Part shown: positions 9,201 through 46,664 of the stretch, piece by piece | Numbering within the stretch: position 1 is the first letter of the stretch | How the letters are laid out: each line of letters starts with the position of its first letter | Source: Lytechinus pictus | Lineage: Eukaryota | Direction of reading: 5' to 3' | Length of the DNA: 64,000 bases | Assembly (NCBI RefSeq): GCF_037042905.1 | Contig: NC_087245.1 | Coordinates: forward strand, 19,532,001-19,596,000 | Notes under the pieces: model-generated | Seen by the model: the letters and a program-made list of their open reading frames with translations, nothing else | Database searches by the model: none | Told to the model about the DNA's origin: nothing | Made by a program: the position numbers and the translations under genes

Positions 9201-9937
9201 CTGTATATGGATAAATATAGAAACATCACATGTACTGATATAATACATTGGGAAATTTGAATTAGTCTTAATTCATATCTAGCATAAATTAACTCTTAAT
9301 GTGCCAGATGAATCACAGCTCTACGGGATTTATGTGTACTATCAGGTGCTGATTGGCAACAGCAGCACTCTGAGAGTTGAGCAATATAATGTTTAGATGC
9401 AATAAGCAAATATTAACATGCCAATGTAATGTGACGCTTGAAAACTGGTAGTTTTGTTGACTTCAGCATGGGTCTTGACATTTAATGTCATGCTATTACA
9501 GTGATGGGACTACACATAGATCCCCCCACCTACCTGAAAAATAGGTTCGCTGCTCGAATCTCTGCCAATGCACTTCCATAATGACACTCTATCCCATTCT
9601 AATTAGAATACTTCTAAACTCAGGTCATTATCTGTAATCAATCCTAACAGCAAGTTTGAGTCCTAACACATATCAGAGTTGTGAAGTGTTTCATTTCCTT
9701 CCTCTCCTAGCTTCTACCAATTGTTAAAACTCAGCATCAGTTGATCTGATGTTGAACTAAAAGTATAAGCAATACAGTTGGTATAGCCATGAACACAAAA
9801 ACAGCATATTATATTTTCATGCTTTCCACTTGATTGCTGACATGATATTTTGGCAAGGATTCAAAATATTTCCTCCACTCAATCCTCATTCAATCTAAAT
9901 ACTGCAGAGGACATGAACGGGACATCAATGGACTTAC

Positions 9938-10106
9938 GGTTAACTGTGAGGTGTGCAATAGACGTTGCTTCTCCTGCCTGGTTGGTGGCCTTGACGATAT
10001 ATTCCCCAGAGTCTTCAGGATAAAGGGATGAAATCTCAAGAACACAGGTGCCATCTTCTGTGATCCTGATGGTGATGCGACTGTCTTGCCTCAGCTCCCT
10101 ACCACT
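9938..10106 (-). CDS. TTN: Exon, second half of Ig15
   Basis: atgtag|AGT GGT...AAC C|gtaagt; PEDSGEYIVKATNQAG. Confidence 0.9.
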
Positions 10107-10457
10107 CTACATCACCAATGTCCACACAAGAATGTTACATTAATACATATATAAAAGATTAAAAAATATATCATGAAACTGTAAACATTAACTTCAGTTT
10201 TGCAACGTCAGCCATGTATTTCATCTATGAAATAATGAAGTAAGTAACCATTGCCTTACACTCACCGATGACTCTTGTCTTTCATTCTATTAAACATTGG
10301 ATCTTCAATAACAAAAGACAATAATTACAAAAAACTGAATTCTTAAGAAACCATGATTATCTGTCAATCCCTAATCATGTAAGCAATAATTTTTTTTATA
10401 GTTGAGCTATAAATATGATGAGAAATTTTATCACAAGTAGCCTCAACTGGCTCATAC

Positions 10458-10780
10458 CTTGTACCACCTGACTGTTGGTCTGGGGTTACCACTGACGTGG
10501 CACTCAAAGCGGGCAGTTCCACCTTCGTTAACCTCCTGACTGCTTACAAATGACTGGAAGGATGGAGGTTGAGCAGGTTTTGGACGGAGTTGAGGTTGGA
10601 CTTCGGCAGGTTTGGGCTTAGGTGGAGCAGGAGCTGGAGCGGCTCCTGGCCTGAAGGTTGGAGGTGGTATCGTCTGGATGTCGAGGTCTGAGTAGTAGAT
10701 ATCCTCTCCAGGAGCCACAGACAGTGTGGACTGGATGAAACGAGCCTGCTTGGTCTCACGGACTATGCGTTGCTCCTCAT
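10458..10780 (-). CDS. TTN: Exon, linker and first half of Ig15
   Basis: cattag|AT GAG...TAC AAG|gtatga; FECHVSGNPRPTVRWYK. Confidence 0.9.
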
Positions 10781-11239
10781 CTAATGAACAGTGAGCAATG
10801 ACATTACAGGATATTGACATAAATTGTTTGCTAGGTAATTAGATTCAAATACATGTACATGTTCAGTGTTGACTTGACTTAATTTTTCTTGATGCAATGA
10901 CAAATGTTCTAGTGGCCTCAATTTCATTTCAACAGTACTCTGTTTTAGTTTTGCTTGATACAGATGCTTTTAATCTTATTATATTTGTATACTTTATTGT
11001 CAATGTGATACTGGTTAAGAGTTCAGTCACCTTCCAAGATATCAGAGATGGATGTTTGACCATTAAGATTTCTGCAATAGAAAAGGGATTGTTGTCATCT
11101 AATCAAATTCTACTGAAAAATTCTATACATGGATAATATAGACATTTAGAAAATGCATATAATTTTGAGTCTGAATTCTTGTCATTCCTCACAACTAACT
11201 TAAAAAAATTTCATTCATGACAGCACTGGATTCACATAC

Positions 11240-12445
11240 CTTCAACGATCAGCTTTGCAGTACATGAAGCCAGTCCAGCTGCATTCTCAATCTTACATGT
11301 GATTTTGCTTGAGTCATCTGGCTGCACCTTAGGAAAGGTCAGTGTGGTTGTTCCATCTGGCTTAGTGTCAACCTTGCAAATTATTGAAGGTATTAGCTCT
11401 TGTCCATCTCTGAACCATTTGATAGACGGCATAGGTTTACCAGACACCTGTGCTTCAAAGCGACCTTCCTCCCCAGGTTTCACCCTGCAGTGATTGATGA
11501 ACTTGAGAAAGTTTGGTGGTTTCCGATCCTCAGGTGGTGGTGGCATTATAGTAAACTGTTTAGATTGAACGGGTACTGCCTTAGTTGGTTTGGTTACCTG
11601 AGGTTTGATGTCTGAAGTCACCGGTATCTTCATTGTTGGAGCACCTGGCGATGGTTTCGGTGCTGCACCTGGTTTGGCTGGAGTGCTAGGTGCTGGTGTT
11701 GCTGGTTTGCCTGGTGTAACTGGAGCCTGAGAAGATTTAAATGGCACTGATGGTTTTGGTGTCACAGACGGTTTTGATGTCAGAGATGGTTTAGATGGGC
11801 CTGGTGGTTTAGTGTCCTCTGGTTGCTGGAACTTTGCCAATAGTGAAGGTGTAACATAATGCTTTGGTGGTGGCACTTGTCCTTGGGTGTGAGGTGGCAT
11901 GTACACCACAGGAGGTGTACCAAGATCAGCTACTTCTGGCTGATCTATGTGCAGCATTGGCTGTGGTCGGACACTTCCAACATCACTTGGCGCAGGTGGT
12001 CTTGTAGGGGATAAATCCTTTTGCATTGGACGTCTTGTAGGAGATAAATCCTTTTGCATAGGACGTCTTGTAGGTGAGGGTTCCTTTCGCACAGGGCGGG
12101 TAGGTGACAAGTCCTTATGTGCACGATCTTCAGCTCTCTGAAAAGCTTCAATCTTAGAGGATAGTTTGGTCTTGGCTTGTGCTTTAGTTAAGCTTGGCAC
12201 CTTATCCGCTGCTTTTTCTTGACTGTCGTCTGTGTGCTGAGCAAATGGATGCCCCTCTTCATCTTCACTCTCCTTCCTAGTACGTTTCTTCTTCCGTGGC
12301 AAGACCAGGGTCTCATCATAGGGTAGGATGTCGTCCAGGTCAACGTCGGTATCAGAGTCCATACCTGGGTCGACACTGGCACTGACATCAGCCCCATAGG
12401 ACTCACTGAAGCTAAGAAGATTTCCAGCAGGAGCATCTATATCAA
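11240..12445 (-). CDS. TTN: 1206-nt exon: acidic/basic segment, SPTR repeats, Pro-rich linker, Ig14
   Basis: taacag|TT GAT...GAA G|gtatgt, phase 1-1; overlaps ORF 11232..12488. Confidence 0.92.
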
Positions 12446-13004
12446 CTGTTAAGTCATACAACATGGTTACAAAAAAATAAGAATGCAATATAACAAATTA
12501 GAATTCTTGGACCTGCAATTATTTAAACATTGTCATGTTTTAATTGTAATTTGCATAATATTCTTAAGTGCTTGAGATTTTCATAAGCTATGAAACTTGT
12601 CTTACCTAAAAACTGCATAGTTTGTACACACCTGATATATAGTAAAGCTTACTTTTATTGAAAGAAACACAACCAATTTCAATTAAGATTTTTGCAATCT
12701 CTTTAAACAGATTTCATTATACTACGAATCCACTCTGAATACAAGAGAGAATATAAAAATGTATTTCAAATTTATTTTTTCAATTAATATCTTATCACAT
12801 AAGAAACTTCAAAATTCAAGAGAACTTGATCTCATCATTACCCCAGGCAGACTTTCATTCCTAGCGTATTTGCCAATAATTGTTCAAAAGAAATGTCCTA
12901 TTTTAAATTTACACTTTTTCTATCTAATAGTAATATACATCATACGATCTGATCATCAACTTATATCACACACAGTTTTCATATGTCAACATCATCACTT
13001 TTGT

Positions 13005-13478
13005 TGTTTGAAAGTTTGCATGGTGGCAATCACTGATGTGGTTTACAGTACACCATGTGGAGTGTTATAGAAACAGTGGATAGAAGAAGAAAAGAAATGG
13101 ATAGGCGAGAAAGTGGAAATTTGAGAGTAGAGTAATCTTTCTTGAATGTAGTCCTGAACTTATCTCCTGAAGACGGACAGTTAACCTGTCCGAAACGTCG
13201 AGTCTCTGACAGTCAACCTGCCCGAAACGTCGAGTCTCTCTACTGCTTCTACTCATCATCTCTACTCGCCGACTCAAGCCAGCATCTCCTCATCCATCCT
13301 ACTATTCAAGCTGTTTTCAACTCATCAATCTCTTCTGGTTTACAGTCCTTTTCAGGACTACATTCAAGAAAGATTACTCTACTCTCAAATTTCCACTTTC
13401 TCGCCTATCCATTTCTTTTCTTCTTCTATCCACTGTTTCTATAACACTCCACATGGTGTACCGTAAACCACATCAGCG
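13005..13478 (+). mobile_element. Penelope-like retroelement fragment with inverted terminal segments and 14-bp TSD
   Basis: 130-bp inverted repeat 13029-13158 / 13351-13480 with 2 mismatches seen. Direct repeat atcatcacttttgt at 12991-13004 and 13479-13492. Hammerhead motif inside. Confidence 0.7.
13164..13202 (+). ncRNA. Minimal type I hammerhead ribozyme motif
   Basis: CTC-CTGAAGA-C-GGACAG(ttaac)CTGTCC-GAAAC-GTC-GAG: core boxes, 6-bp stem II, palindromic ACGT, GUC triplet, 3-bp stem I. Confidence 0.6.
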
Positions 13479-14455
13479 ATCATCACTTTTGTCAAGTCAA
13501 TGTAAAGTCTAATAGTATACTGAGGGGGTATCAAACATTAGATTCTTAAACATCCATGCAGAATGCAAAACTAGAATTGACAATTTGGTGCAAATTTTAC
13601 AGTAAAGAGCTATAAAGGCAATTCAAGAAGGAAAATTTAGGGGGTTTGATTTTTTGCATCAAATATTTAAATTATTTCATTGACCCTATCATTCATTTTT
13701 ATTCATACAAGAACCCATCATTATCAACATCATGTAATGGCATTGATTATTTATGATTTTTTTAATTTGTATTCCATTTATTTTCATTTATCAATTTATT
13801 ATCTTCTTATTAGAGGAGGGACATTGTGCCTAACACCTATTTTCCTTGGATCATTCATTAAGGATATACTTTTTTTAGTATTTCATTCCAATAGTAGACG
13901 TTTTAATCAAGAAAAATCTCTATAATACATTTGGTGTATTATAGATGTGTTTTGTGGCCACTGAATTTTCATTATTAAAATGAAGTATTTACTTTAGATC
14001 TAACCAAGACATGAAAGACCTATCAAAATGTTCCTACATAATCATTAGCTCCATCAAAGCAACTATATGCTGTTCGCTCTAAATACTATTTCAAAAGTGT
14101 ATCCTACTTCCACATCATAAAAAATTCTATGAATTTCATTTAAATCTATCCAGTCTGTTTGCATGTGAATCTAAACAACCATAAAAATATGAAGGAAATA
14201 GGGTCAATTTATTTTAAAAAAATGTAAAATTGTAAAATAGAATTTATTTAAATATGAAAATACAGCATTTAAAACTTTGTTTTGTACACTTTTTATTTCT
14301 TTTTTCTTAACTTGATCAAGGGAAATACTTTCTAAGTGACCAAAAAAGCTTATAAGTGTAACCCTAGTTCAATAGGACATTTCTACTGAGATAAACCACA
14401 AACACATAGGATTAACTACAAACATGACACAATATGAAAAAAACTTGGTACTTAC

Positions 14456-14580
14456 ACATGCTAGTAGATTAACGGCACGCTGGGTGATGTTAAGTCCACG
14501 ACAGATGTAAGGGATTGACGAACGGTAGATGCAACGACAGGATCATGCAACGCGGGTAGTGCATACTACGTACATGTACT
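14456..14580 (-). promoter_or_regulatory. Candidate internal alternative first exon (5' UTR plus ATG T|gtaagt); 5' boundary unknown
   Basis: CpG-rich island in an AT-rich intron. agcATGT|GTAAGT is a perfect donor. There is an in-frame upstream TAA. Splicing to 12445 gives in-frame M-F-D-I-D-A-P. Confidence 0.5.
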
Positions 14581-14869
14581 GCATGCTTATTATTTCATGC
14601 AAATGTATACCTGAATCTGTTTATGAATTCACTTATATTACAATTTTATGCATTTGTTTTCCCCATTTTTTAATCATCATTATCTAACTTATTACATACT
14701 TAAGTTTATACTTTGTATTACTTACCAATCAATTGTCCTAACTGTTATATTTTGTTTGTTTTGTTTCAATTTTTTCATTTCTTTTTTTCACTTCATTATT
14801 TGTTTATTTTCTCCAATTATATTAGGTCAGGCCCATCAGTGAGCTAAGAAACTGCAAATTGTTATTTTC

Positions 14870-15020
14870 ACCATCAATATTACTGCTCTGATCATTATTT
14901 TTTTCAACAATAATGTTATCATTACTACTATTTTTATTATCATTATTATTACATCTTTATTCATTATTAACATCATTGTTATCATCAAAATCATCATTAT
15001 GATTATTACTATCATTATCA
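14870..15020. repeat. Degenerate (ATC/ATT)n microsatellite
   Basis: Trinucleotide low-complexity tract; similar tracts at about 19170-19320, 34510-34580, 36305-36380 and 61710-61740. Confidence 0.8.
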
Positions 15021-15988
15021 ATTTCTAACAAATACATTAATCTATTGATATTCCAATTGCTCATTTTCTCTTGGCTTCTTTTATTAAGTTGGTATATTCT
15101 TGGTACGTTATTTCATATCTTTATATGGGTGTTTACTTCACCAATAAGTTCACTTCCAAGTCAACGATTCAAAATTACATAATCTTTTGATGCTCAATTA
15201 TGATGCTTATGAAGTAAGTTATTTCTTATCTTCTTGAAGAATATCTACATGAATATTTAGTATATTTACCAATATTCAAATAATTATGTTCATCTTTGAA
15301 CCATTGACATTTTATGATAAACATATTTATCAAACAACGAACATTTGTTCGAGCTGTATTATGGTAGGTATATTAATGAATTCATGAATGATATTTATGC
15401 TATTCATTAATATTAATCAAATATGTATTTAAATATGTATTCATTTTTATTTATGGTACTTATTTGGTTAAGTTAGAAATGAATAGAAAAAAAGTTCTTA
15501 ATAGCACTGAATAGCAATATATCTTTAGTAGAGGCTTATTGATTTTTGGAAAATCTATGGCCTTTCAATTTGGTGGATATGTGCATTTATCATTAACTAA
15601 TGATTCAATAAGAAATAAGACATGCTCGAAACACACTTATGAACATAATGCAAGTCAAACACCACATAACAGTCGTGGATAACAATATACATCCATTAAA
15701 CAGTGTACAAAACAATATCAATAATGCTATCTTTTAACATGTCAACAAATAATGACTTATTTTGAGAAGTTGGAATGTGCAAGTTCAGCATGCTGTCAAA
15801 TGTGATATAGGTATAGCATTCCCTAATGAAATGGTGCCAACATATCAACACAGTTAAACAACATTTTTCCTTAGTATATTCACATTTTTTATGTTCACTA
15901 AACAAACCAAATACATGCACTAACAGCTTTACACACATTTCATGTTGTTTTCAACACACTTACACATAATGGAAACATAAGCTTTACA

Positions 15989-15994
15989 TTTATT
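15989..15994 (-). terminator. Candidate poly(A) signal for the tail-anchor isoform
   Basis: Minus-strand AATAAA followed about 22 nt later by GU-rich tgtgtaagtgtgtt. Confidence 0.4.
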
Positions 15995-17759
15995 CATTGC
16001 CAAAGATTTGTTGAAATTGTTGAATGGAGTAGATTTGTTAAAAGCTATATAATCATTGAACTGAATCATTAATTACACAATTCAAGATGTATTCTTTAGC
16101 AAAAAGAAAATAGAACCTCCACTGTAATTCAACAGATAAAGTCACCCATCTATATGTAAATGAATCGCAAGATGTCCGTAATATTTTTTAATCTTGCATA
16201 AAAACATGGAGCAGTGTTGTTTATTTTCTTTTATGTGTTGTTTATTATCTGAAATGTGTTGCTTTCCTTCTTCAGAATGTCAGAGAGACAAAACATATGT
16301 GTATTGAACAAAATTTGTGTCACGCAATCTTTCCAATACTTGTAGTAGCCCCACTTTGCAAGTGTATGTATGGAAACTTTGCCACAATGGTAACTACCAT
16401 GGTAACAGGTCAAAGCAGCCAATCAAAATCAAGGTTTTAATGAATGTTAACATAATACCAAGTTACCATATTTGTATATCTTTATGAAATGGAACTCCTA
16501 ATTGTATTCATAGGAAAAATATAATACTGTAATGGTATGCACTAACCATATCCCCCCCCCCCTTTTATGGAATATCTATTTTTTGGGTGATCTCCTTTGC
16601 TTTGTAAGCATACATGTCTGTGAATGCTTTTCTTTCATCATATCCTGTCATTATCTCTTCATTTGTAACACCTACTGAGTTTTACAAATCATGTTTTATC
16701 TTTTCTTTATACTGTATTTATCAAAATACATGTATGAGAAAAGGGATATTTTTTAATGAAATGGAAGTTGTCTAAACATTAAATCTATACAATCTAGACA
16801 TTAAAATTGTTCATTCTATATATAATGCACAATTTCTGTATTTAAAAAAAAATCACTTTTAAAACTTGTGGCAGAATATCTATGTTCCTTGCAGATTAAT
16901 AGCCCTTCTGATATTTTTTTTCTCCAAAAAAGATAAAATAGCAGTTTATCAACATCAAAATCCCTGCATTTGGATGAAAAGTTTTTAATTAAACTTTATT
17001 TTCAGGTTCCTATAACTCTATGAACTTTAGAGATTCCAACAAAGTTTAAATGTCTCTCAAATTTGATCAGTATCCTTACCCCAACAAGTAATTTAAATTA
17101 TCGAATTCTTAACATTACCAACAAAGATTAAGTCATTCTTTTTCACATTTAGCATACTGACGGGTACAGGTTTATTACAGTAATACGCAACTGAAAAAAA
17201 AACTCATTACATCTTTCTTTTTTTTTTCTTTAATCTGCAATCGATTTAGCATTTTTCATGAATCAATAAATAATATAAGATCGGAGTCTGGAAAAGTATA
17301 ATTGGATTGCAGATTTTAAAGGTAAATTTGAAATTCATTTAGATGATATTTTAAGGTTCATACATGTATCTCACCATGTGAAGTTTGGTTTTATTTGATT
17401 GATTCTTTCCTTCAAATGCCCTCAGAAAAGGACATGATATACCTGCTAGTATAACATGGGACAATGACATTGGACACCTCACCCATTAAATTTCTTTGAT
17501 TTGATTTTTTGACATTAGATCAATTAATATTTTCAAACTATGCTAAACAACCTTCAAAGATTTTATTCTCTGTAAAATGGGCAACCCAATTCCAAACACT
17601 TCAAAATTATGTGAGTTCGGTTTAGTCTCACTCTCTTCAAAATTAAAGATCTACATCAAAACCAGGGTTACAAATCTATGATCAGTTCCTATGGCAACGG
17701 GGGGGGGGGGCACCTAGGCTAATCTTTCATTCAATCTGATACAAATGATCTTGGTTGGT

Positions 17760-17893
17760 TCATTGTTTAAAAAATGTGAGGGCAATGAAGGACACAAACC
17801 AAGCCAAAACCAAAACCAAACTACACATGACACCCCAAGCTGGTATCAGCTGGGCAGCTTTGAAGTCCAATGGCTTCACTGATTCTTCTGAAT
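17760..17893 (-). CDS. TTN: Candidate alternative terminal exon encoding a C-terminal transmembrane tail anchor
   Basis: Pyrimidine-rich acceptor cttctacccgtttcactttcaatcacag|AT, phase 1, matches the Ig13 exon donor. It encodes (D)SEESVKPLDFKAAQLIPAWGVMCSLVLVLAWFVSFIALTFFKQ*. Confidence 0.6.
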
Positions 17894-19758
17894 CTGTGAT
17901 TGAAAGTGAAACGGGTAGAAGCGATGAGCTCCACGAGGTATCCACATTTTTTAGAAAGTATGTATTTGTGATATGGCATTTAAAAGCTCAGCGAATTTTG
18001 TGTGTACCAATTCAATGAGGCATGAGGCCTTTTAAACATGTTTCTGAGGCAAGAGTCCCTAAATTAAATTTATTGAAATCAAACAAAACAATGGACCAAT
18101 CAAATTCTTTTTTCAAAATCTGTTCAGAGTTTTACTGATAGACTCAAGACATTATAATGACATCGTATAATAGGAGTCACAAAATCATATGAAATATCAG
18201 GAGTTTGCCAAGACAAGCAACTTTTTTGGCATGAAAATGATGTAATTGTCTCATCATGTCTGAACAGCGATTTTTTTTTGCTTAGCTTTGTAACACCATA
18301 TCTAAAAGAGGATTCTAGATCAAAGGGATTGTAGCAATGATAAAGTGACAATAAGATGAAAATGAGATGGTGAGAGTTATTGAAATTTATAGCTTTGGCA
18401 TATTTCTGTCTGTCTGGTGACACTCTTTAATAATGATAAAAGCTCCCTCAGCTTTGTTGCTTTATGCTCCTTAACAAGTTTGAGACACTTTTCTGAGCAG
18501 TAACCCATCTCTATCTTTTCCTTGCTAATGCTCCCATTCCAGCAGAGTAATGGCGATGCAAGGAGTTCCACTGTAAAAGATACCACATTGGCTTTTTGCC
18601 AAAAGATGTGGAACAGACTTTTGTTGCAGAGCCTAGTTCCTAGTTTCCTGTGTGACCTTTACAAGCAAAATATCCAGTGCATTTTTTTATTTCATTAAGG
18701 ATGCTTTTATGGGAAACATGGTATTGGTTTTAATATTCCCATCATAAAAATGAAGAAACTATTTCTGAGTCACCTGGGAAAGTTTGATTGGATTTTAATT
18801 TGCTTAGAATATTCCAAATTATCATACTGTTCTTGTTTGTATAGTATTTAAAGGTGATTTGTGTGTCTTCTTCATATCTTTTATATATTCATGTTTTAAT
18901 TTTTAACCAAGTTATCCTTTTTCTCCCCTCCCATTTCTTCTCTTCTCTCTCTCTCTCTTTTTGTGTATACTTGTAGGAAAATATTAACTTTACCTGATAA
19001 CTACTGAATTCCTTGATTCCCATAGGTATTTTATAGATATCACCAGGTTTCAGTAGGCATCAAATCCCCTGTAGGCATCATCAATACTAGCATGGATGTA
19101 AACACCATCACATTACAATTGCTTCCACTCTCCAACATTACAGCTGCAGTCAACAGTTCCTTGTCACCATCATCATATCATCATCAGCAGAAGCAGCAAC
19201 ATCATCATCAACTTCATCAGAACTACCAATACCATCATATCATCTTCGTCATCAACATAATCAGCAGCATTACCATCAATTCCACCTTTGTCATTCTCAA
19301 CAACATTATAACTATCATCGTCTTTTTAACCACACTAATTTCTCAGATTGGAAACACATAAACAAAGCATCTACATCGTCACTACTCATGTTCTATCATG
19401 ACTTATGGCATCACAAGTTCTTTCCTCTTTCTCAACAAATATCACACAAAAACAGCACTAAACCCACTCATTAGATACATTTGGAACTCAGTATAAAAAG
19501 ATCCTTGAGACAATTATTTAACAAAATAACAAAGTTATTTTACACTGTAGGAATCGTGTTATGTAAGCTTTAACAACAATGAATGAAAAAGCTGGGAATA
19601 TGAAGAAAACTTTTTCATCCGTAGGAAAATATTAAATTCAGATCTTTTTATATTGAGTTTCAACTGTTTAACTATATCCATCATCAGCATAAAAAGCATA
19701 GATTTCGTCATCCTCATCATCATCGTCATCATTGTAATCCACATCACTGGCATCATAC

Positions 19759-20073
19759 CTTCAACAAGCAGCTGAGAACTGCATGTGACCTGTCCTGCCG
19801 GGTTGGAAGCCGTTACGGAAATACGACCGGAGTCGTCGGCAAGCACCTGAGGGATGTAGAGCGTGCTGGTCCCGTCCGAACCGGTGGAGACCCGCTTATG
19901 GGGCATGCTCTGAATCAGCTTTCCCTCATGAAACCACTGGACCTCAGGGCGTGGACTCCCAACCACTTTGCATTCAAAGCGGGCGGGGCTACCCTCGGCC
20001 ACCTCTAGATTCACTATCTTCTTTAAAAACTTAGGGGGAACAGCAAACTCCGCTGCAGACTCAATTTCTTCAA
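19759..20073 (-). CDS. TTN: Exon, Ig13
   Basis: ttccag|TT GAA...GAA G|gtatga, phase 1-1, 315 nt. Confidence 0.92.
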
Positions 20074-23000
20074 CTGGAAAAGGAGGCCAAAGTGAGAAGG
20101 AGATAAAAAAAAAGAAAGAAGATTTTTTTTAAAAAGCACATCAGAATTTTGTTTCCAGACAAACCCAAAAAGATTAAAACTGTTTCATCTAGTTCATTTT
20201 CAGAACAATGAATAATTTCAATATGGTTTGCAATGTGTAAGCTGCAAACTGAATTTCAGTATAAATATAGATAACATATAAATATTGAGATGTGCATGGT
20301 TAATTTTGTGTGCAAAGCATCAGCCTCTTTACAGGGTGCAGGTGCAATTACGTATCACCCCCTTTCTGGGGAAATTTGGTTTCACTTTGAATGTGAGTGT
20401 CTAGTGAATGAGACTACTGAAATCAAATTATGTGATTCTAATTCATGAATAATGAATGAATTGGGGTAAGCAATTAAGGATATTGAAAGCAGGGTGGGAG
20501 CCAATATGATAAATCATAAGGCCATGGTTTTTTTTCTAGTGGGATATATAATATAGATAGAAGCTGGGGATATATATATATATATGTAGATATATAGAAT
20601 TGGTGAAGAAATTGAATGCGAAAGTGAGAGCAGCAAAAAGATTATATATGTGGCAAAAAACAGCCTGCGTTTCCCCCTAAGCTGATCATTCACACAAAAC
20701 TAGCCATCCAAGACAACAAATAAACATCCATATGGTCCAAATATTGCCAAGTAGTCTTACCTCGAAGAGGTGAAGTGAATTTCTGTTTGGTTTGGTGAAT
20801 AATTTAGCATGTCATAAATTGAAACAAGGCAGAAATAAATGCTCTCGTCTAACATGAGATGTTGTTTCTGCCTCATTTCAATTTATGTCATCTCACACAA
20901 AAGTCCCGGTAGAATCCAAGGTTACTTCAGTGAAAAGTAGGCCATAAAATGATTCTGAATGCCCAAACCAGGTTAGTTTTTCATAAAATGGTGAGTTAGT
21001 TTACCATGGTGAGAGAAATATCATGACAACCATTATTAATTGAAAAGTATAAATAAACAGGAGCTAGTAACAAAAAAAGGAAGAATCTTTCAAAATTCCA
21101 CAAACTTGGCCCATACTGGATGTGTATTTGGCAATGATGGTGCTGAAAACAAGTCGCACACAACATCTCTGAATGCAAAGATTGGAAACAAAGTTGTCTT
21201 GAAGCCAAATATATAGCTCTTTCACACTTCATGCTACTGTAGCCTTTAATGCATAAATCAATATTCTTTAATAAAAGGGACATTAAATGAACACAAATAC
21301 AAATTCTTATTGCATACTAAATGATTAATAGACATTATCTGAGAATCAACAGATCTTGCTAGAAAAAATTGGGAACGAAAATAAATAAATAAATAATAAG
21401 ATTGAGTTTGGTTCACAATGTCCAAATAAAAGGTACGGCCTGATTGGCAGTGTGGGATATGTCAATTTTTATCCAAAAAAAATGATTTTATGAAAGAAAG
21501 ATGTAAGTAAATAAACAATTTGTATTATTATTGCCATGTTATAAAATTGCACTACCTACTCACACAATAAAAAAAGTTATTCTAGATATCAAACTACATT
21601 TTACATGTAAAACCACTACCCCTTTCCCCAAAGATTATCACAGCATGTATCAAATGTATTATCATATTAAAAGTACTGCATTTTCAAGCACTGATTTTTA
21701 TCTTAGAGGAAGACATAAGGTGTTGTTGCTCGTTCAAATTACGAAGAAAAAAATCTGGACAATTTCAGCTATATTAACATAGCTTTCACAGACAAAAACT
21801 TGATCCAATCACAATAATGTAAAAAACATGAATTAAATAAATGACAATTTATACATAGATATAGGAAATGAATACATGTTTTCAATTACATATATAAGTT
21901 TATAGTCATAGATAACTGAAATCACTCAAATACTGCATACTTTTGCCTGCAACATCTTTTCATCTGGAGCTTTCTAACGTACTTCCCTTTAAAATTCCAC
22001 TTCTATCAAGAGAACAAACTTCTTCATGTTCTGTTCTGTTTTCTCAACTGAAATTCTCTTTTAATGAAATTGCACCAAATTAAGTGAAAATCACTTATTT
22101 AAAGATAAACATGCAAGTGTCACATCATGGACTGTTCAAACATCTATCTAGTCTATTGCACACAACTACAATATTTCTTCCTCTGGCAAGGTTTATATCT
22201 AATGCACTTGTAAAGTTTTTAGGGTTTACCTACCTTACGTGATTGACTGAAAGTCATGAAATTATAATTTACAACATACACATATATATATTTATGAAAA
22301 TCTTTTTTTGTTTCATTTTATGATTTTTATAGTTTTCTCATATCATTTGAACTGCAAAGTATCATAAGGCACAAATGGTGATACCAATTTTTTGTCAGAA
22401 AAAATCATTTGTTACAAATGGAGAATTTTCATATAAAGACAAAAAAATAACATGCATATTTTTTTTCCAATAAACCACTTCTAGGTATGATATCAAATCA
22501 AACAGTGCAACAAAGCAACTAATTTTGTAAACATTCCTCAAAGTTTATAAATTTTTATACATTTTGGTGCATATCCGTCAATGGTACAGACCAAATTATG
22601 CTCACAAAAAAAAATGTTCACGTACTCCGATTTTTGGCAGTCAGAATAATTTAAGAGTACTATGATATTTTTGGCAGTGCAGTACAAACATTTGGAAGAT
22701 TTTGGTACATTTTTGCCCAAAAAAATTGAGTTATAACAGAACATTTATGAAGAATGAGTGTGTCCAAAAAGAAGCAGTATACTTGAAAAATCTGGAAAAA
22801 AACCTGGGAATGACCATGTGATATACACATTTGTGATATCAATGAAATTGTCGGTGTAATGCACCAAGTGTTTGTTGATGATTCTCATACAGTTACTTCC
22901 AGACCTGATTTCTCCCATTTTGGTTTCTTTCCACAGCCACTTATTACCTATGTTATCTTTCTATGTAGCAAAAAAAAACACGCTTGAAATTAAATGTGCA

Positions 23001-24750
23001 TATAACCCAATATAATCAAAAGATCTAGAAAATGGTGTGTGTGCATTAAGAAAGCTATTACTCCTATGGCATTGCAGATGGGGAAAAAATCTGAAGCTAC
23101 TGTTACTGTTTTTATGTCTGATCTGTTTTCACTTGCTTCCTTTAGAAAATAATGGTTTCTTGAATCAACTAGTAAGAAAATCATAATGTTCTTGATACAA
23201 TTCACTGCTAAATCCTAATTTCAATTTTCCTCTTCAATTGTTGAATAACATGACATATCTCAGAAATGTCAGCTCCCATGTGCTAAAAAAATCTACATGC
23301 ATACTAGTATGTGCAGCTTCATATAAAAACGGAACGTAAATTGGTACTTTTCTATAAACTTAAGTATTGAAAAAAAAACAATGTAAATCTAATCTTTCTG
23401 ATAATCTCTGAATTCTGAGAGCTGATATTTCTTCCTTGATATATAGAGGAAAATCATTGATGGTTTTGACAGTGAGTAAATAAATATTACACTGTAATTT
23501 CTAACAACATATTCACAAGCCATTAATTGATGGTACTTCACATTTATGTACCAATATGTAATTTTTCTAAGCACAGATGAGATCTATCTGGACAGTTTTC
23601 AGCCATTAATTGTCCACAATGTGCATATCTGGCCACATTACAACTGAATGTGTTCCACCAAATTTAATCAAAAATGACAAAAAAGACTTTCTTTGCATTG
23701 CTTGCTGACATGCATGACATCATGGTCTTTTTCCTGTCAAAGAAAATGATAATCAATTGATAGATTTCAAAAATTTAGTTTTAGTTTAGTTAATCAAAAT
23801 CAGCAAACAACAGGAGACAGAAACAGTTTGTTTTAGTATGGCTTCCAAAAATTGTTAGGGGTACTTTTAAGGGTTACTGAAAAACATGACTTTGCTTTAG
23901 AAATTTGGTATCGATCAAAACTTGTCTTATGTTAACATCTTTTGAAAGATCTTGTGGCTTTGAATATGTTGTTAGTTACAAAAAAAATGGTCATGAGCAA
24001 GAGAAATTTCGAACAGAAATACGTGTATGTACACTATTGTTAATATTATCTTTTAACGAATTTACAGACATAAAGTAGACATATGTCAGCTTTTAATTAC
24101 ACAATAATGAAGAAGTGATAATTATGCAACAATAAACTGTGGCAAACATCAGTAACACCAGTAACAATATTTCAGTACTAAATTTCTCTTGCAACATGTG
24201 AATCACAAATATTACACACATCACCCCATAGATAAATAAATGAGATAAATTACAGTTTACATCATCTTGACATATGCTAAATTCACGCTTGACATATGCT
24301 AAATTCACGAGATCAACTATAGGTAAGTTTAAAAGATAATGTGGCTTCCTGAATATTGAGTTTAATGAAAGATGTTGGTAGCAACTATGAATGATTGCTA
24401 AGAATATGCTACAAAACCTAGATGTAAAGGACCCAAATACAGGAATGGGATCAGTATACATGATCACAAGTTATTGTGCTAGATTCTAGGATATATATAA
24501 TTAATGATGTCATGATTTACGGATATGATAATTCCTTAAATATTCCTCTATCATATTGGAGATAGTTACAGAAACTAAGTCCCTTGTTGATTATTGAATA
24601 AATAGGTTATACACGATTAATGGGAGTACACAAGTATAAAAAGAATGAATGGATAAGTTGAATCCAAAAAGGTGTTATTACAGCAGTGTTTGAATTCAAG
24701 GTGATAGAATTAGAAAGAGCGCCCTCAAAGGTCATCAGACTCCCACTCAC

Positions 24751-24939
24751 CTTGTACGTTCAAGATTCCACTGCAGGATATACGTCCAGCGTTGTTAAAC
24801 GCCTCGCAGACGTATTCCCCACCATCTTCCTGGAAGACCTCATTGATCTGGAGTCGGGCGATCCCGTCATCGTAGCTCATGCGGAAGTAGCGTGATGGCT
24901 TGATGATGCCTCCGTTGTGGTACCAGTTAATAACAGGTG
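24751..24939 (-). CDS. TTN: Exon, second half of Ig12
   Basis: ataaag|CA CCT...CAA G|gtgagt; INWYHNG...FQEDGGEYVCEAFNNAG. Confidence 0.9.
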
Positions 24940-25110
24940 CTTTATATGGGAAAAGAGAAATGATTTTTTAAAAAAGAGATGAAGATAAAAATTTATTTTT
25001 TCATTGGTGCAGTTATATCATAGAATAAAGGACGTTAATCATACTGATTTCTAGCCTCCAGTCTCCTTTAATAGGGCACGTGATATGAGAGCAGTTGCTA
25101 CTGACTAAAC

Positions 25111-44043: not shown

Positions 44044-46664
44044 CTGGGGGTTAATGATGATAATATTAAGTTCAGCTTTCATTCATTATCACTTTAAAAT
44101 ATCTTTCGGATATGAGAGATGATAATACAACATGATATGAAATTAGAGCTGTTGGACAAAAATTACCTTTGTTTCATTTGCTACCGTTTCAATGAAAGAG
44201 TTTTGAAAAACTTGCATTTGGCTCAAATATCAAGAAAAATTCCATCATGAAATTCTTCCAAAAGTGTAAATTTCCATCATAGGCAAAACTTATTATCTTC
44301 GAGAAAACAAAACCATTACTTATACACACAAAATGGAGAACCTATTTCTAGTACAGTAAATGAGCTCCACAAAAAGAATGCAGTGATACTGATCTACTAA
44401 AGAAATGTGTACAACTCACTTTGAAATATATAAACATACAATCAACACACAGGGTACTACACAAAATACAATACACAATAAAACATGGTAAAAAATAATA
44501 AAATATACATCTGAGATATGAAAAAATATACTCTAGTAAACAACAAAATGTGATATCATACAGGCCCACAGTTGGTCAAAGTTTTTGGTTATAAATGGTT
44601 TGGTGCACATGGAATTTGGATGTGAATGGGGAAGATATTACACTAGCCCTTATAAATTTGCCAGCTGATTTCTTGAATGACTTCAGGCAAACCTCATTTA
44701 CGGACTCTAAAAAAAAAACAGATGACCTGAACTCCATTTCAGAAAAAGCTTTAATCAAATGCAACTTTAATTTCAACAAATCAAAAACTTGTATTACAGG
44801 TTTGATTGTTTTTGTTGCTTTTAATCACAACTCTTTCTGTAACAAACCAACTGGAAACAGAAATGCACCCATTGTTAAATACTTATAAAAATAATAATCC
44901 ATTTTAGTAACAATGATACCGGGTTACATTTAAGCTTAAATATGTTTACTCAGTAGGACATTTAGAGATATTTCCCAGTATTCTTTCAAATAAATTAAAT
45001 AATATGTAATATATCAAATCCAGATAATTTATATTTCTAAAAAAATACGGTGGGTTTTTATTTCAAATTAGTTCTTATTCTTGATGTTTAAGCGCATCCT
45101 CTGGAAAAGGCTTTCACATTTCATAGCTCAGCTATGAATACTTGTATTCCATGTACATGAAGCCTAACTTGCTAAAGAACATAAACCCAATCAAACATTT
45201 TTTTTCCTTTTAATTCATGGCTAGAAGAATGAAAACATCACAACCTACAAAAGAACAGATTTTCCTATGCTAACATCACACAGAAAACATGCATAAAATT
45301 ATCTCACATGCAATACAATAAGAAATTCAACTAATGCAGATGTACGATAAACCTTTAATTTTTATCTGCCATTTTCTGTAGAATTATTGAAAATATCAAA
45401 GGCAAATTCATAAAACTGACAAAAAGCATTTAACCTGCAGGTCTAAAAGGGTATAACAGGCAAACATTAAAAGAACACAAACTATAGAAATGATACAGAT
45501 TTAATCAAATGGCCATAGAAGTTGCTCATCTTATATACAACAATATACATGCAGCCAAAGAGAAACCTTCCTATTCTACATGAAACATACATACATTTGT
45601 TTTATGAAAAGTGAGATTTGCACCTTTACAACAACAGTAATATTTCATAACATAAAACATGCCTTTTACACAGAATACTTTCAAAACAGAAATTTAAGTA
45701 TACATAAGATTCTAATTCTATCTAACAAATAAGTCAACATATACAATACAAACAAAAAAGTATACACTGCTTTTCAGGCGAGGACATCCAAATCTAAAAG
45801 CATATAAAACCATGCAACGTACATTCAACACAAGAAGATTTCTACATGCAAAGACCTCACTGCATAGCTGGTAGCACTGATTTCAAAATGGCATTTGAGT
45901 TTTGTCTTGCTCAATACCAGTGTCCACATAATGTGAAATAATTGTTGTAATTCTCATTCAAGAGAGTTGGCAAAAATGAACCAATATTTTTCCCTCTGTT
46001 AAAAGAACATCTTTACTGCTATAGAGATAATCTCTTCATTAAAAACCTACTTGTCATTGTAAAGATAAATTCATGTGGATAAAGAGTGTGTCAAAATTTC
46101 ATTTGATGAATAGAAACATCTTTTAAGATTGTGAATGTCGGGTGTATACCGTAATTGCAATGGAGAGACTTGTATGGAAGATTGATACATATTATCAATA
46201 CATCTTATCAGCCAAGTACTTTTATTAAATTCAAATATTGAAATTAATGAACTGAACCAAAACAGAATCATCATCTTTTCTCTAACATTTTAAAGAGACT
46301 TAAATATGATTGCTAGGCGTAACTGTTAAACTGAGTAAATGGTCAGAAAATGTCACTGTAGGTGACGGACATAAAGGGGTGATCAGTATATCTCAAATCC
46401 ATATCTGAATTCCTATCAACAGGTCTGAATCTACTAGTTGCAAATTGAGATATGTACCCATGTCACAGGGAGGCATAAAAAGGTAAATATTTTTGTTTCC
46501 ATCAGTTCTGTGTAGTGTGGTCACATAAAAGACAAATGTTAAATAGTATTATCCACATAAGTTGAAATACAGACTGGACAAATAAACAAGCAAGAACGAC
46601 TTTGACAGAAATGCCACTTAAACATCAGCTCTACCCCTTTATGCAGCTCGAATCCTCTACACAC

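What the first reader, a model, noticed from the sequence alone, without database searches (positions are those of the whole stretch)
12446..19758. One intron may act as a switch that splits titin into two independent proteins
Seen: in transcription order this intron holds the Ig13 donor, the tail-anchor terminal exon, a poly(A) signal, the candidate first exon and the Ig14-exon acceptor. All of these junctions are phase 1. Inference: three outputs are possible. These are full-length titin (19759->12445), a membrane-anchored N-terminal half, and an N-terminally truncated giant protein lacking the Z-disc Ig1-13. Alternatively these could be two tandem genes that are only sometimes joined.
Basis: inference. 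Interest (0 to 1): 0.8.

Follow-up and report, generated by a model that had tools for sequence, protein, structure and literature searches.

The report
Urchin titin's possible membrane-anchored short form
In a sea urchin titin gene this intron is spliced out to make the long muscle protein, while RNA and an annotated protein point to shorter forms that stop near here; one of them would end in a predicted membrane anchor, which would be new for titin if its splice is confirmed, but the proposed second start site has no support.

Summary
The window holds the 5' part of a Lytechinus titin gene (96% identical to L. pictus XP_054753173.1; Ig1-9 colinear with mammalian Z1-Z9). RNA contigs show the full-length splice 19759->12445, and an acorn-worm protein joins the same domains, so this is one gene. 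Short N-terminal forms are likely: the RefSeq protein ends in a terminal exon at 23733, one intron upstream, and two raw RNA runs carry Ig12-Ig13 reads but none downstream. The tail-anchor exon has a very strong acceptor (11.2 bits), a clean transmembrane tail that chance rarely gives, and local RNA cover. But its splice was not among the 15 of 39 joints shown, and contigs of two runs cross its acceptor unspliced: about even odds. A crinoid orthologue model also ends in a transmembrane tail. The internal first exon is unsupported: ordinary donor, no junction seen; only a CpG cluster favours it. Verdict: a Novex-3-like zone of alternative 3' ends, with a possible new membrane-anchored variant, not a shown three-way switch. 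The scan had not noted this on other DNA.

The parts
24751..24939 (-). Second exon of Ig12; its donor is used both to Ig13 and (RefSeq model) to the short terminal exon at 23733
   Evidence: joint 20073|24751 in X9 (2 reads), X10 (8 reads) and X6
21219..23733 (-). Alternative terminal exon in the upstream intron: 4 codons (GKRP, stop), then a likely 2.5-kb 3' UTR ending about 30 nt after ATTAAA at 21250.
   Evidence: C-terminus of XP_054753173.1 maps here. X1 contigs cover 24175-21219 at 11-40x and end at 21219. The intron has 0 AATAAA where 8.9 are expected
19759..20073 (-). Ig13 exon (I-set domain), phase 1 at both ends; donor scores 9.8 bits
18906..19758 (-). Unspliced RNA running on from the Ig13 donor; the frame reads 66 residues of Met-rich microsatellite translation to a stop at about 19560
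   Evidence: X6 record 11, 18906-19788, depth 59.7, possibly inflated by repeats
17760..17893 (-). Candidate tail-anchor terminal exon: hydrophilic spacer, one predicted transmembrane helix (Kyte-Doolittle 19-mer 2.48), KQ, stop
   Evidence: RNA cover in X6 and X1, none in X9/X10; splice not listed
17155..17759 (-). Likely proximal 3' UTR with AATAAA at 17567, 17395 and 17176 (the last with a U-run upstream and a GU-rich stretch downstream); an A10 run at 17227 could also prime oligo-dT
   Evidence: summed X6 depth about 34-42x over 17202-17805 against 11-12x on both sides
14456..14608 (-). CpG cluster ending in ATG, T and a GTAAGT donor (the proposed first exon); more likely part of a long 3' UTR or a regulatory element
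   Evidence: X6 record 9 crosses it unspliced and ends near 14332
14213..14297 (-). Cluster of AATAAA (14297, 14248, 14213) where intronic RNA cover stops; likely distal poly(A) site or internal priming site
   Evidence: the X1 contig end near 14249 is inferred from bin depths
13029..13480 (.). MITE-like repeat: 130-nt arms, 98% complementary; unrelated to the switch
   Evidence: repeat-derived reads in all four runs
11240..12445 (-). Exon with Pro-rich linker and Ig14; acceptor scores 6.1 bits; contains a Met (12362-12360) in a motif conserved in crinoid and acorn worm
   Evidence: joints 12445|19759 and 10780|11240

Best explanation
This is one sea urchin titin gene whose 7.3-kb intron is spliced out in the long transcript, and the two introns flanking Ig13 likely serve as alternative 3' ends that give short N-terminal titins, one of which would carry a predicted membrane tail. 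Mechanism: after Ig12 the transcript can take a 4-codon terminal exon (annotated in RefSeq, with matching RNA cover). After Ig13 the donor has a strong acceptor 1.9 kb away (17893) and a weaker one 7.3 kb away (12445). Use of the near one, with cleavage at a downstream poly(A) site, would give Ig1-13 plus a C-terminal helix, at least about 2,700 residues (inferred; about even odds). Such a protein would be inserted after translation into the ER or sarcoplasmic reticulum as a tail-anchored protein. Its Z1-Z9-like end would hold on to the Z-disc or dense body, making a one-chain tether between membrane and contractile apparatus (inferred from vertebrate titin and the obscurin-ank1.5 link; untested). 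No internal promoter is needed to explain the data.
For: Titin identity: Ig1-6, 8 and 9 have colinear best hits on bat titin (Z1-Z9 region); Ig7 is colinear only as its second-best hit. The top PDB hits of Ig2 are titin chains, including Z1Z2. One gene: joint 12445|19759 in X6; Ig12-Ig16 colinear in Saccoglossus XP_006823021.1, with the linker motifs conserved. Short forms: XP_054753173.1 ends at the 23733 exon; X1 cover ends 31 nt after ATTAAA; no AATAAA in that intron against 8.9 expected. In X6 three small downstream intron stretches have under 1x residual depth, whereas both introns flanking Ig13 are covered at 11-60x for kilobases and then stop. X9 and X10 have 2 and 8 reads on the Ig12-Ig13 joint but zero depth in all six bins over 9800-12865, where about 12 and 26 fragments would be expected under even cover (upper-bound estimate). 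Tail exon: acceptor strength and null model; X1 depth 5.06 in its bin, the highest of the 8 intron bins that had no X9/X10 reads; a depth step in X6. Crinoid model XP_033111500.1 ends in Ig-FN3 plus a hydrophobic tail (KD 2.67); only 3 of 259 fetched proteins of 300 aa or more have such a tail.
Against: The 19759->17893 joint is not among the 15 joints shown (24 were hidden). X6 record 10 (18484-17806) and X1 record 3 (17942-17540) both cross the acceptor unspliced, where a used splice should break a contig at about 17864. X9 and X10 have no reads on the tail exon although they read Ig13. No protein with Ig13 plus a tail came up in the length ranges searched (183-2000 aa; 2152-5000 aa; 1412-4496 aa). 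The tail has no Pfam family, no Atlas hit at 0.9 or above, and no significant similarity to the crinoid tail (E 0.056), which sits about 7,500 residues further along and is only a gene model. Contig depth is a poor measure: haplotype bubbles and internal priming at A-runs could produce the steps. X9 and X10 come from one study and about 6% of each was read; the tool warns that a filter drops some reads, so a dip in depth is not by itself a finding. The 23733 joint was not listed either, and X6 record 12 crosses it unspliced.
Confidence: 0.55

Rival explanations
1. The tail exon is a chance cryptic exon. RNA in this intron is unspliced read-through, a long 3' UTR of a read-through isoform, or internally primed pre-mRNA, and the only real short form is the soluble one ending after Ig12.
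For: Contigs of X6 and X1 cross the 17893 acceptor unspliced; read-through from the Ig13 donor has depth 59.7; A-rich tracts lie at 17227-17237 and 14310, near where cover steps down. Other hydrophobic phase-1 tails occur by chance at 44510 and 24298 and at 2 antisense places. No annotated protein carries the tail in the ranges searched. A very large scan will pick out rare coincidences.
Against: A near-top acceptor and an in-phase tail together occurred in 0 of 300 simulated introns at strict thresholds and 2.7-4% at relaxed ones. The exon is 43% GC against about 31% for introns. The X1 island lies on it. Assemblers prune minor short junction paths (recalled), so contigs cannot show absence.
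Confidence: 0.27
2. One reading: besides the terminal exon, an internal promoter near 14600 makes a giant titin lacking Ig1-13, like Cronos but much further upstream. It could start at the 14459 ATG or at the conserved Met at 12362.
For: CpG cluster tied for the highest in 32.9 kb of intron; open phase-1 frame. The crinoid RefSeq model XP_033111500.1 begins at the equivalent Met, apart from the N-terminal model XP_033111498.1. An X1 contig begins at about 14628, at the cluster's edge. X6 depth is 143.8 downstream against 91.6 on Ig13.
Against: Ordinary donor; no TATA, CArG, MEF2 or E-box match in 15300-14400 on the patterns tried. X6 depth at 14513 is only 11.3, from one unspliced contig. X6 record 8 passes 12445 into Ig13 unbroken, and there is no residual cover just upstream of 12445. 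X1 has no cover at 12402. Residues upstream of the Met are conserved in Saccoglossus, as expected of a linker in the joined protein. The crinoid split may be an annotation break; its neighbour is flagged partial.
Confidence: 0.15
3. Two tandem genes that are only sometimes joined.
For: RefSeq models stop (L. pictus) or start (crinoid) in this region; two raw RNA runs show only the upstream half.
Against: The joined form is the path of a deeply covered contig (X6) and is colinear in a hemichordate model with conserved residues at the join; no independent start for the second gene is shown.
Confidence: 0.03

Closest known systems
Vertebrate titin Novex-3 (PMC11178842: abstract and Introduction read; PMC4720518: passages)
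   Same: Short isoform sharing the N-terminal Z-disc region with full-length titin and ended by an alternative terminal exon; reported to have non-sarcomeric roles.
   Different: Novex-3 ends in one large unique exon. Here the terminal exons code 4 or 44 residues, there are at least two candidate ends in adjacent introns, Ig10-13 do not map colinearly on the bat short isoform, and that isoform has no hydrophobic tail (maximum KD 1.17).
Vertebrate titin Cronos (PMC4720518: passages)
   Different: The Cronos start lies 110-257 bp upstream of an exon far into the gene (human exon 240) and was shown by 5' RACE and chromatin marks. Here the candidate is a spliced exon 2 kb upstream, after Ig13, and no junction or start was seen.
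Drosophila sallimus isoforms Kettin, Zormin and Sls(700) (PMC7039190: passages; PMC12198301: parts 2-3 of 7 and passages)
   Same: One invertebrate titin-family locus giving several partial proteins of different length.
   Different: The passages read mention no membrane anchor; domain-level orthology to kettin was not tested.
Obscurin with small ankyrin 1.5 (PMC2172649: passages)
   Same: Links the sarcoplasmic reticulum membrane to myofibrils through a giant Ig protein; the functional analogy for a tail-anchored titin.
   Different: Two proteins; the membrane anchor is N-terminal and on the ankyrin, and the colocalisation shown is at the M line. No homology claimed.
Anneissia japonica titin-like XP_033111500.1 (gene model)
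   Same: Orthologous to the region from Ig14 on, and ends in a short hydrophobic tail.
   Different: The tail follows an FN3 domain at residue about 7,750, not Ig13; no significant sequence similarity between the tails; RNA support for the model could not be checked.

Membership tests
Titin/connectin | N-terminal I-set Ig array colinear with Z1-Z9 | tested here: met
   8 of 9 domains have colinear best hits on bat titin P0157, Ig7 only as second best; titin chains head the PDB list for Ig2
Titin/connectin | Orthology to ambulacrarian titin-like proteins across the intron | tested here: met
   Saccoglossus P0005: Ig3-10 and Ig12-16 colinear best hits, Ig11 second best; crinoid P0099 and P0009 match the two sides
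Titin/connectin | C-terminal Ig/FN3 super-repeats and kinase domain | not testable with these tools
   Outside the window; no genome is held
Titin/connectin | Z-repeats, PEVK segment, sarcomeric localisation | not tested
   Long P/E/V/K-rich frames are visible but were not scored; localisation needs the bench
Novex-3-type short isoform | Shared N-terminus ended by an alternative terminal exon | tested here: met
   Met for the 23733 exon (RefSeq protein plus RNA cover), though its joint was not listed; not established for the 17893 exon
Novex-3-type short isoform | Large unique terminal exon homologous to the Novex-3 exon | tested here: not met
   Terminal exons code 4 and 44 residues; Ig10-13 show no colinear mapping. 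Works like Novex-3, is not Novex-3
Cronos-type internal-promoter isoform | Intronic transcription start joined in frame to the downstream exon | tested here: inconclusive
   The frame is open, but no joint is listed and contigs cross the donor unspliced; contigs cannot show starts or absence
Cronos-type internal-promoter isoform | Promoter chromatin marks or 5' RACE | not testable with these tools
   Only a CpG count and a motif scan were possible
Tail-anchored membrane protein | Single hydrophobic helix within the last 30 or so residues, none earlier | tested here: met
   KD 2.48 in P0002; maxima 0.93 in P0158 and 0.54 in Ig13; the Ig1-2 region upstream of P0158 was not scanned
Tail-anchored membrane protein | The tail exon is spliced to Ig13 in mRNA | tested here: inconclusive
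   Region transcribed in 2 of 4 runs, joint not among the 15 of 39 shown, acceptor crossed unspliced
Tail-anchored membrane protein | Post-translational membrane insertion with the N-terminus in the cytosol | not testable with these tools
   Needs expression and fractionation

The most novel reading that the evidence does not exclude
Echinoderms turn titin into a membrane protein by alternative terminal exons: an urchin Z1-Ig13 titin with a C-terminal membrane anchor (and a longer anchored form in a crinoid) tethers the ER or sarcoplasmic reticulum, or the nuclear envelope, directly to dense bodies, doing in one chain what obscurin and small ankyrin do in vertebrates.
Probability: 0.45. Interest if true: 0.75.

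Novelty: new variant of a known kind. Interest (0 to 1): 0.45.

Why it matters
Splitting a titin locus into partial proteins is known (Novex-3, Cronos, kettin), so the switch idea by itself is not new. An integral-membrane titin isoform would be. None appeared in the listings of my searches for titin with tail-anchored/transmembrane, titin with echinoderm/membrane anchor, sea urchin connectin or Lytechinus titin; these cover open-licence papers only. If real, it gives a direct molecular candidate for how non-chordate deuterostome muscle ties internal membranes to its contractile apparatus, and suggests that short titins with non-sarcomeric roles predate vertebrates. It is cheap to test: one junction count and one RT-PCR.

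Tried and rejected
No genome of the window is held, so the downstream gene end and the copy number of the CpG cluster could not be checked. The run search listed no holder on record as RNA; the raw RNA runs came in by species label. Protein searches found no other echinoid orthologue with a readable C-terminus. One search gave 1 protein among 381 candidates: P0004, 83% identical, apparently an unspliced genomic frame. One search gave 2 among 3105, and one search gave 107 among 346, all at or below 35% identity except the query. Long proteins crowd these searches, so the blanks are weak. Metagenome scans: 141 pattern matches for Ig13, none confirmed; 42 loci for a tail-exon pattern, none similar to the window by blastn, one chance tblastn hit. 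The Atlas gave only hits under 0.8. Earlier-findings look-ups by relatives, sequence and nearby place were empty; the word look-up gave only an unrelated mesh-gene note. Rejected as evidence: shared phase 1, the presence of an AATAAA, and the donor at 14456 taken alone. Considered for the X9/X10 pattern: circular RNA or decay intermediates from the Ig12-Ig13 region in rRNA-depleted libraries (titin circular RNAs recalled, not looked up), or splicing to a strong acceptor at 19591, which would stay inside the same depth bin; neither could be tested. Considered and set aside: a stand-alone micropeptide from the Met inside the tail exon (no evidence of a start). No structure or complex prediction was run. 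Stretchin-MLCK as a further precedent is recalled; one search gave only a listing. Supplementary files of PMC12198301, which may describe the sea urchin connectin model, were not read.


Full report
What the locus is. The window carries a large minus-strand gene of I-set Ig domains and long low-complexity linkers. Its 1,229-residue frame is 96% identical to Lytechinus pictus XP_054753173.1, so the species is L. pictus or a very close relative. Mapping that protein gave 24 exact junctions, and RNA added four. Ig1-9 fall in order on mammalian titin's Z1-Z9 region (8 of 9 as best hits), and Ig3-16 fall in order on Saccoglossus titin-like XP_006823021.1 (Ig11 only as second-best hit). It is a titin/connectin orthologue by its N-terminal region; the kinase end lies outside the window, and no genome is held.

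The observation. They are not equally informative. Half of the window's junctions are phase 1 (14 of 28), and the intron holds 22 AATAAA. The proposed first-exon donor scores 6.2 bits on a matrix built from the gene's own sites; 48 cryptic donors do as well in 32.9 kb of intron, 3 of them right after an ATG. Its CpG cluster is unusual (9 per 150 nt, mean 1.06). The tail exon stands out. Its acceptor (11.2 bits) beats 27 of 28 real ones, and only 4 intronic AGs match it. The phase-1 frame gives a spacer, an uncharged helix (KD 2.48) and two final residues. Among 356 sense and 343 antisense acceptors of at least lower-quartile strength, only 2 other places on each strand gave such a tail. Simulated introns matched it 0 times in 300 at strict thresholds and 2.7-4% of the time at relaxed ones.

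RNA (one lay allowed, 9800-25100, four runs). X6 is a contig set with spliced joints, so it is RNA. It shows 24751->20073, 19759->12445, 11240->10780 and 10458->10106: the full-length splice is real. At the Ig13 donor two contigs meet, the spliced one and an unspliced one (18906-19788, depth 59.7). Intronic cover then continues at 11-40x to about 14330 and stops, while three small downstream intron stretches have under 1x. Summed depth over about 17200-17800 is 34-42x against 11-12x on either side, which matches the tail exon and its near UTR. X1 (another organism label, 3-6% different, guessed RNA) has an island at 17540-17942 as deep as its downstream exons, with nothing over 17976-18997. 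The raw rRNA-depleted runs X9 and X10 have 2 and 8 reads across Ig12-Ig13 and none on the 1.7 kb of downstream exons, which suggests transcripts that do not go on.

Against the tail exon. 19759->17893 is not among the 15 joints shown (24 hidden), both contig sets cross its acceptor unspliced, and X9/X10 have no reads on it. Contigs drop minor paths, contig depth is flat and sensitive to haplotypes, A-runs at 17227 and 14310 could prime, and the tool warns that dips can come from its filter. So the RNA shows that the region is transcribed, not that it is spliced.

The internal first exon. X6 depth at 14513 is 11.3, from one contig that crosses the donor unspliced and ends near 14332, beside three AATAAA. 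X1 bin depths fit a single 6.8x contig from 14628 to about 14249 (inferred). The X6 contig through 12445 is unbroken, with no cover just upstream. The simplest reading is the far end of a long 3' UTR. For an internal start there remain the CpG cluster, higher X6 depth downstream (143.8 against 91.6, unexplained), and a crinoid model, XP_033111500.1, that begins at a Met conserved inside the Ig14 exon. That Met lies in a linker whose upstream residues are also conserved in the joined Saccoglossus protein, so it need not be a start.

XP_054753173.1 ends after Ig12 with four residues that map to a phase-1 acceptor at 23733. X1 contigs cover that intron to 21219, 31 nt past an ATTAAA; one of them ends at 23708, close to the 23704 expected if the splice is used; and the intron has no AATAAA where 8.9 are expected. 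The joint itself was not listed, and X6 crosses that acceptor unspliced. So alternative 3' ends are a property of both introns around Ig13, and the best-supported short form is soluble.

Relatives. The crinoid orthologue model ends in Ig-FN3 followed by a hydrophobic tail (KD 2.67). Only 3 of 259 fetched proteins of 300 residues or more have such a tail. It lies far further along the protein, is not significantly similar to the urchin tail, and is unverified. No echinoid orthologue of the tail could be fetched.

Mechanism and odds. Shown: one gene, and the full-length splice. Likely (about 85%): short N-terminal titins by alternative 3' ends. About even (45-55%): the Ig13 donor sometimes takes the strong near acceptor, giving a tail-anchored titin of at least about 2,700 residues. 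Inferred from general knowledge: post-translational insertion into the ER or sarcoplasmic reticulum, and tethering to dense bodies through the Z1-Z9-like domains. Unlikely (15-20%): the internal first exon.

Known systems. It works like Novex-3 (shared N-terminus, alternative terminal exon; PMC11178842, Introduction) but is not Novex-3: the terminal exons are tiny and not homologous. The third output would be Cronos-like (PMC4720518, passages) but fails for lack of a start or junction. Drosophila sallimus already gives several partial proteins (PMC7039190, passages). The anchored form would be analogous to the obscurin-ank1.5 link (PMC2172649, passages). My searches (listings only, open-licence library) showed no membrane-anchored titin and no account of urchin titin isoforms. 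Verdict: new variant of a known kind, interest 0.45; 0.75 if the tail splice is confirmed.

Noticed in passing
window 23733-21219 (-): RefSeq-annotated 4-codon terminal exon after Ig12 with a likely 2.5-kb 3' UTR, in an intron that lacks AATAAA altogether; strongly covered in run X1.
   Followed up: yes
window 19591 (-): A second very strong acceptor (11.8 bits) 168 nt after the Ig13 donor; the phase-1 frame gives 24 residues and a stop. It could be another short terminal exon.
   Followed up: partly
window 19758-19560 (-) and P0004: A GAT/ATG microsatellite right after the Ig13 donor reads as a Met-rich peptide on read-through; a relative at 83% identity has a similar Met-rich read-through.
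   Followed up: no
window 33042-29362 (-): A 3.7-kb exon coding a Ser/acidic-rich unique sequence with internal repeats and one Ig, placed after the Z9-like domain; the repeat number appears to differ between the window and XP_054753173.1.
   Followed up: no
window 7793-3 (-): Open frame of at least 2,597 codons with Ig domains and a period of about 402 nt visible in the ORF list near the window start.
   Followed up: no
window 13029-13480 and 16350-16440: A MITE-like inverted repeat and a short palindromic repeat, both present in many other transcripts.
   Followed up: partly
P0009 (XP_033111500.1), last 25 residues: Crinoid titin-like model ending in FN3 plus a hydrophobic tail; worth checking as an independent membrane-anchored titin.
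   Followed up: partly
P0005 (XP_006823021.1), residues 1-2300: The acorn-worm model has about 2,200 residues ahead of the Z1-like domain, as the connectitin idea (PMC12198301) would predict; domains not scanned.
   Followed up: no
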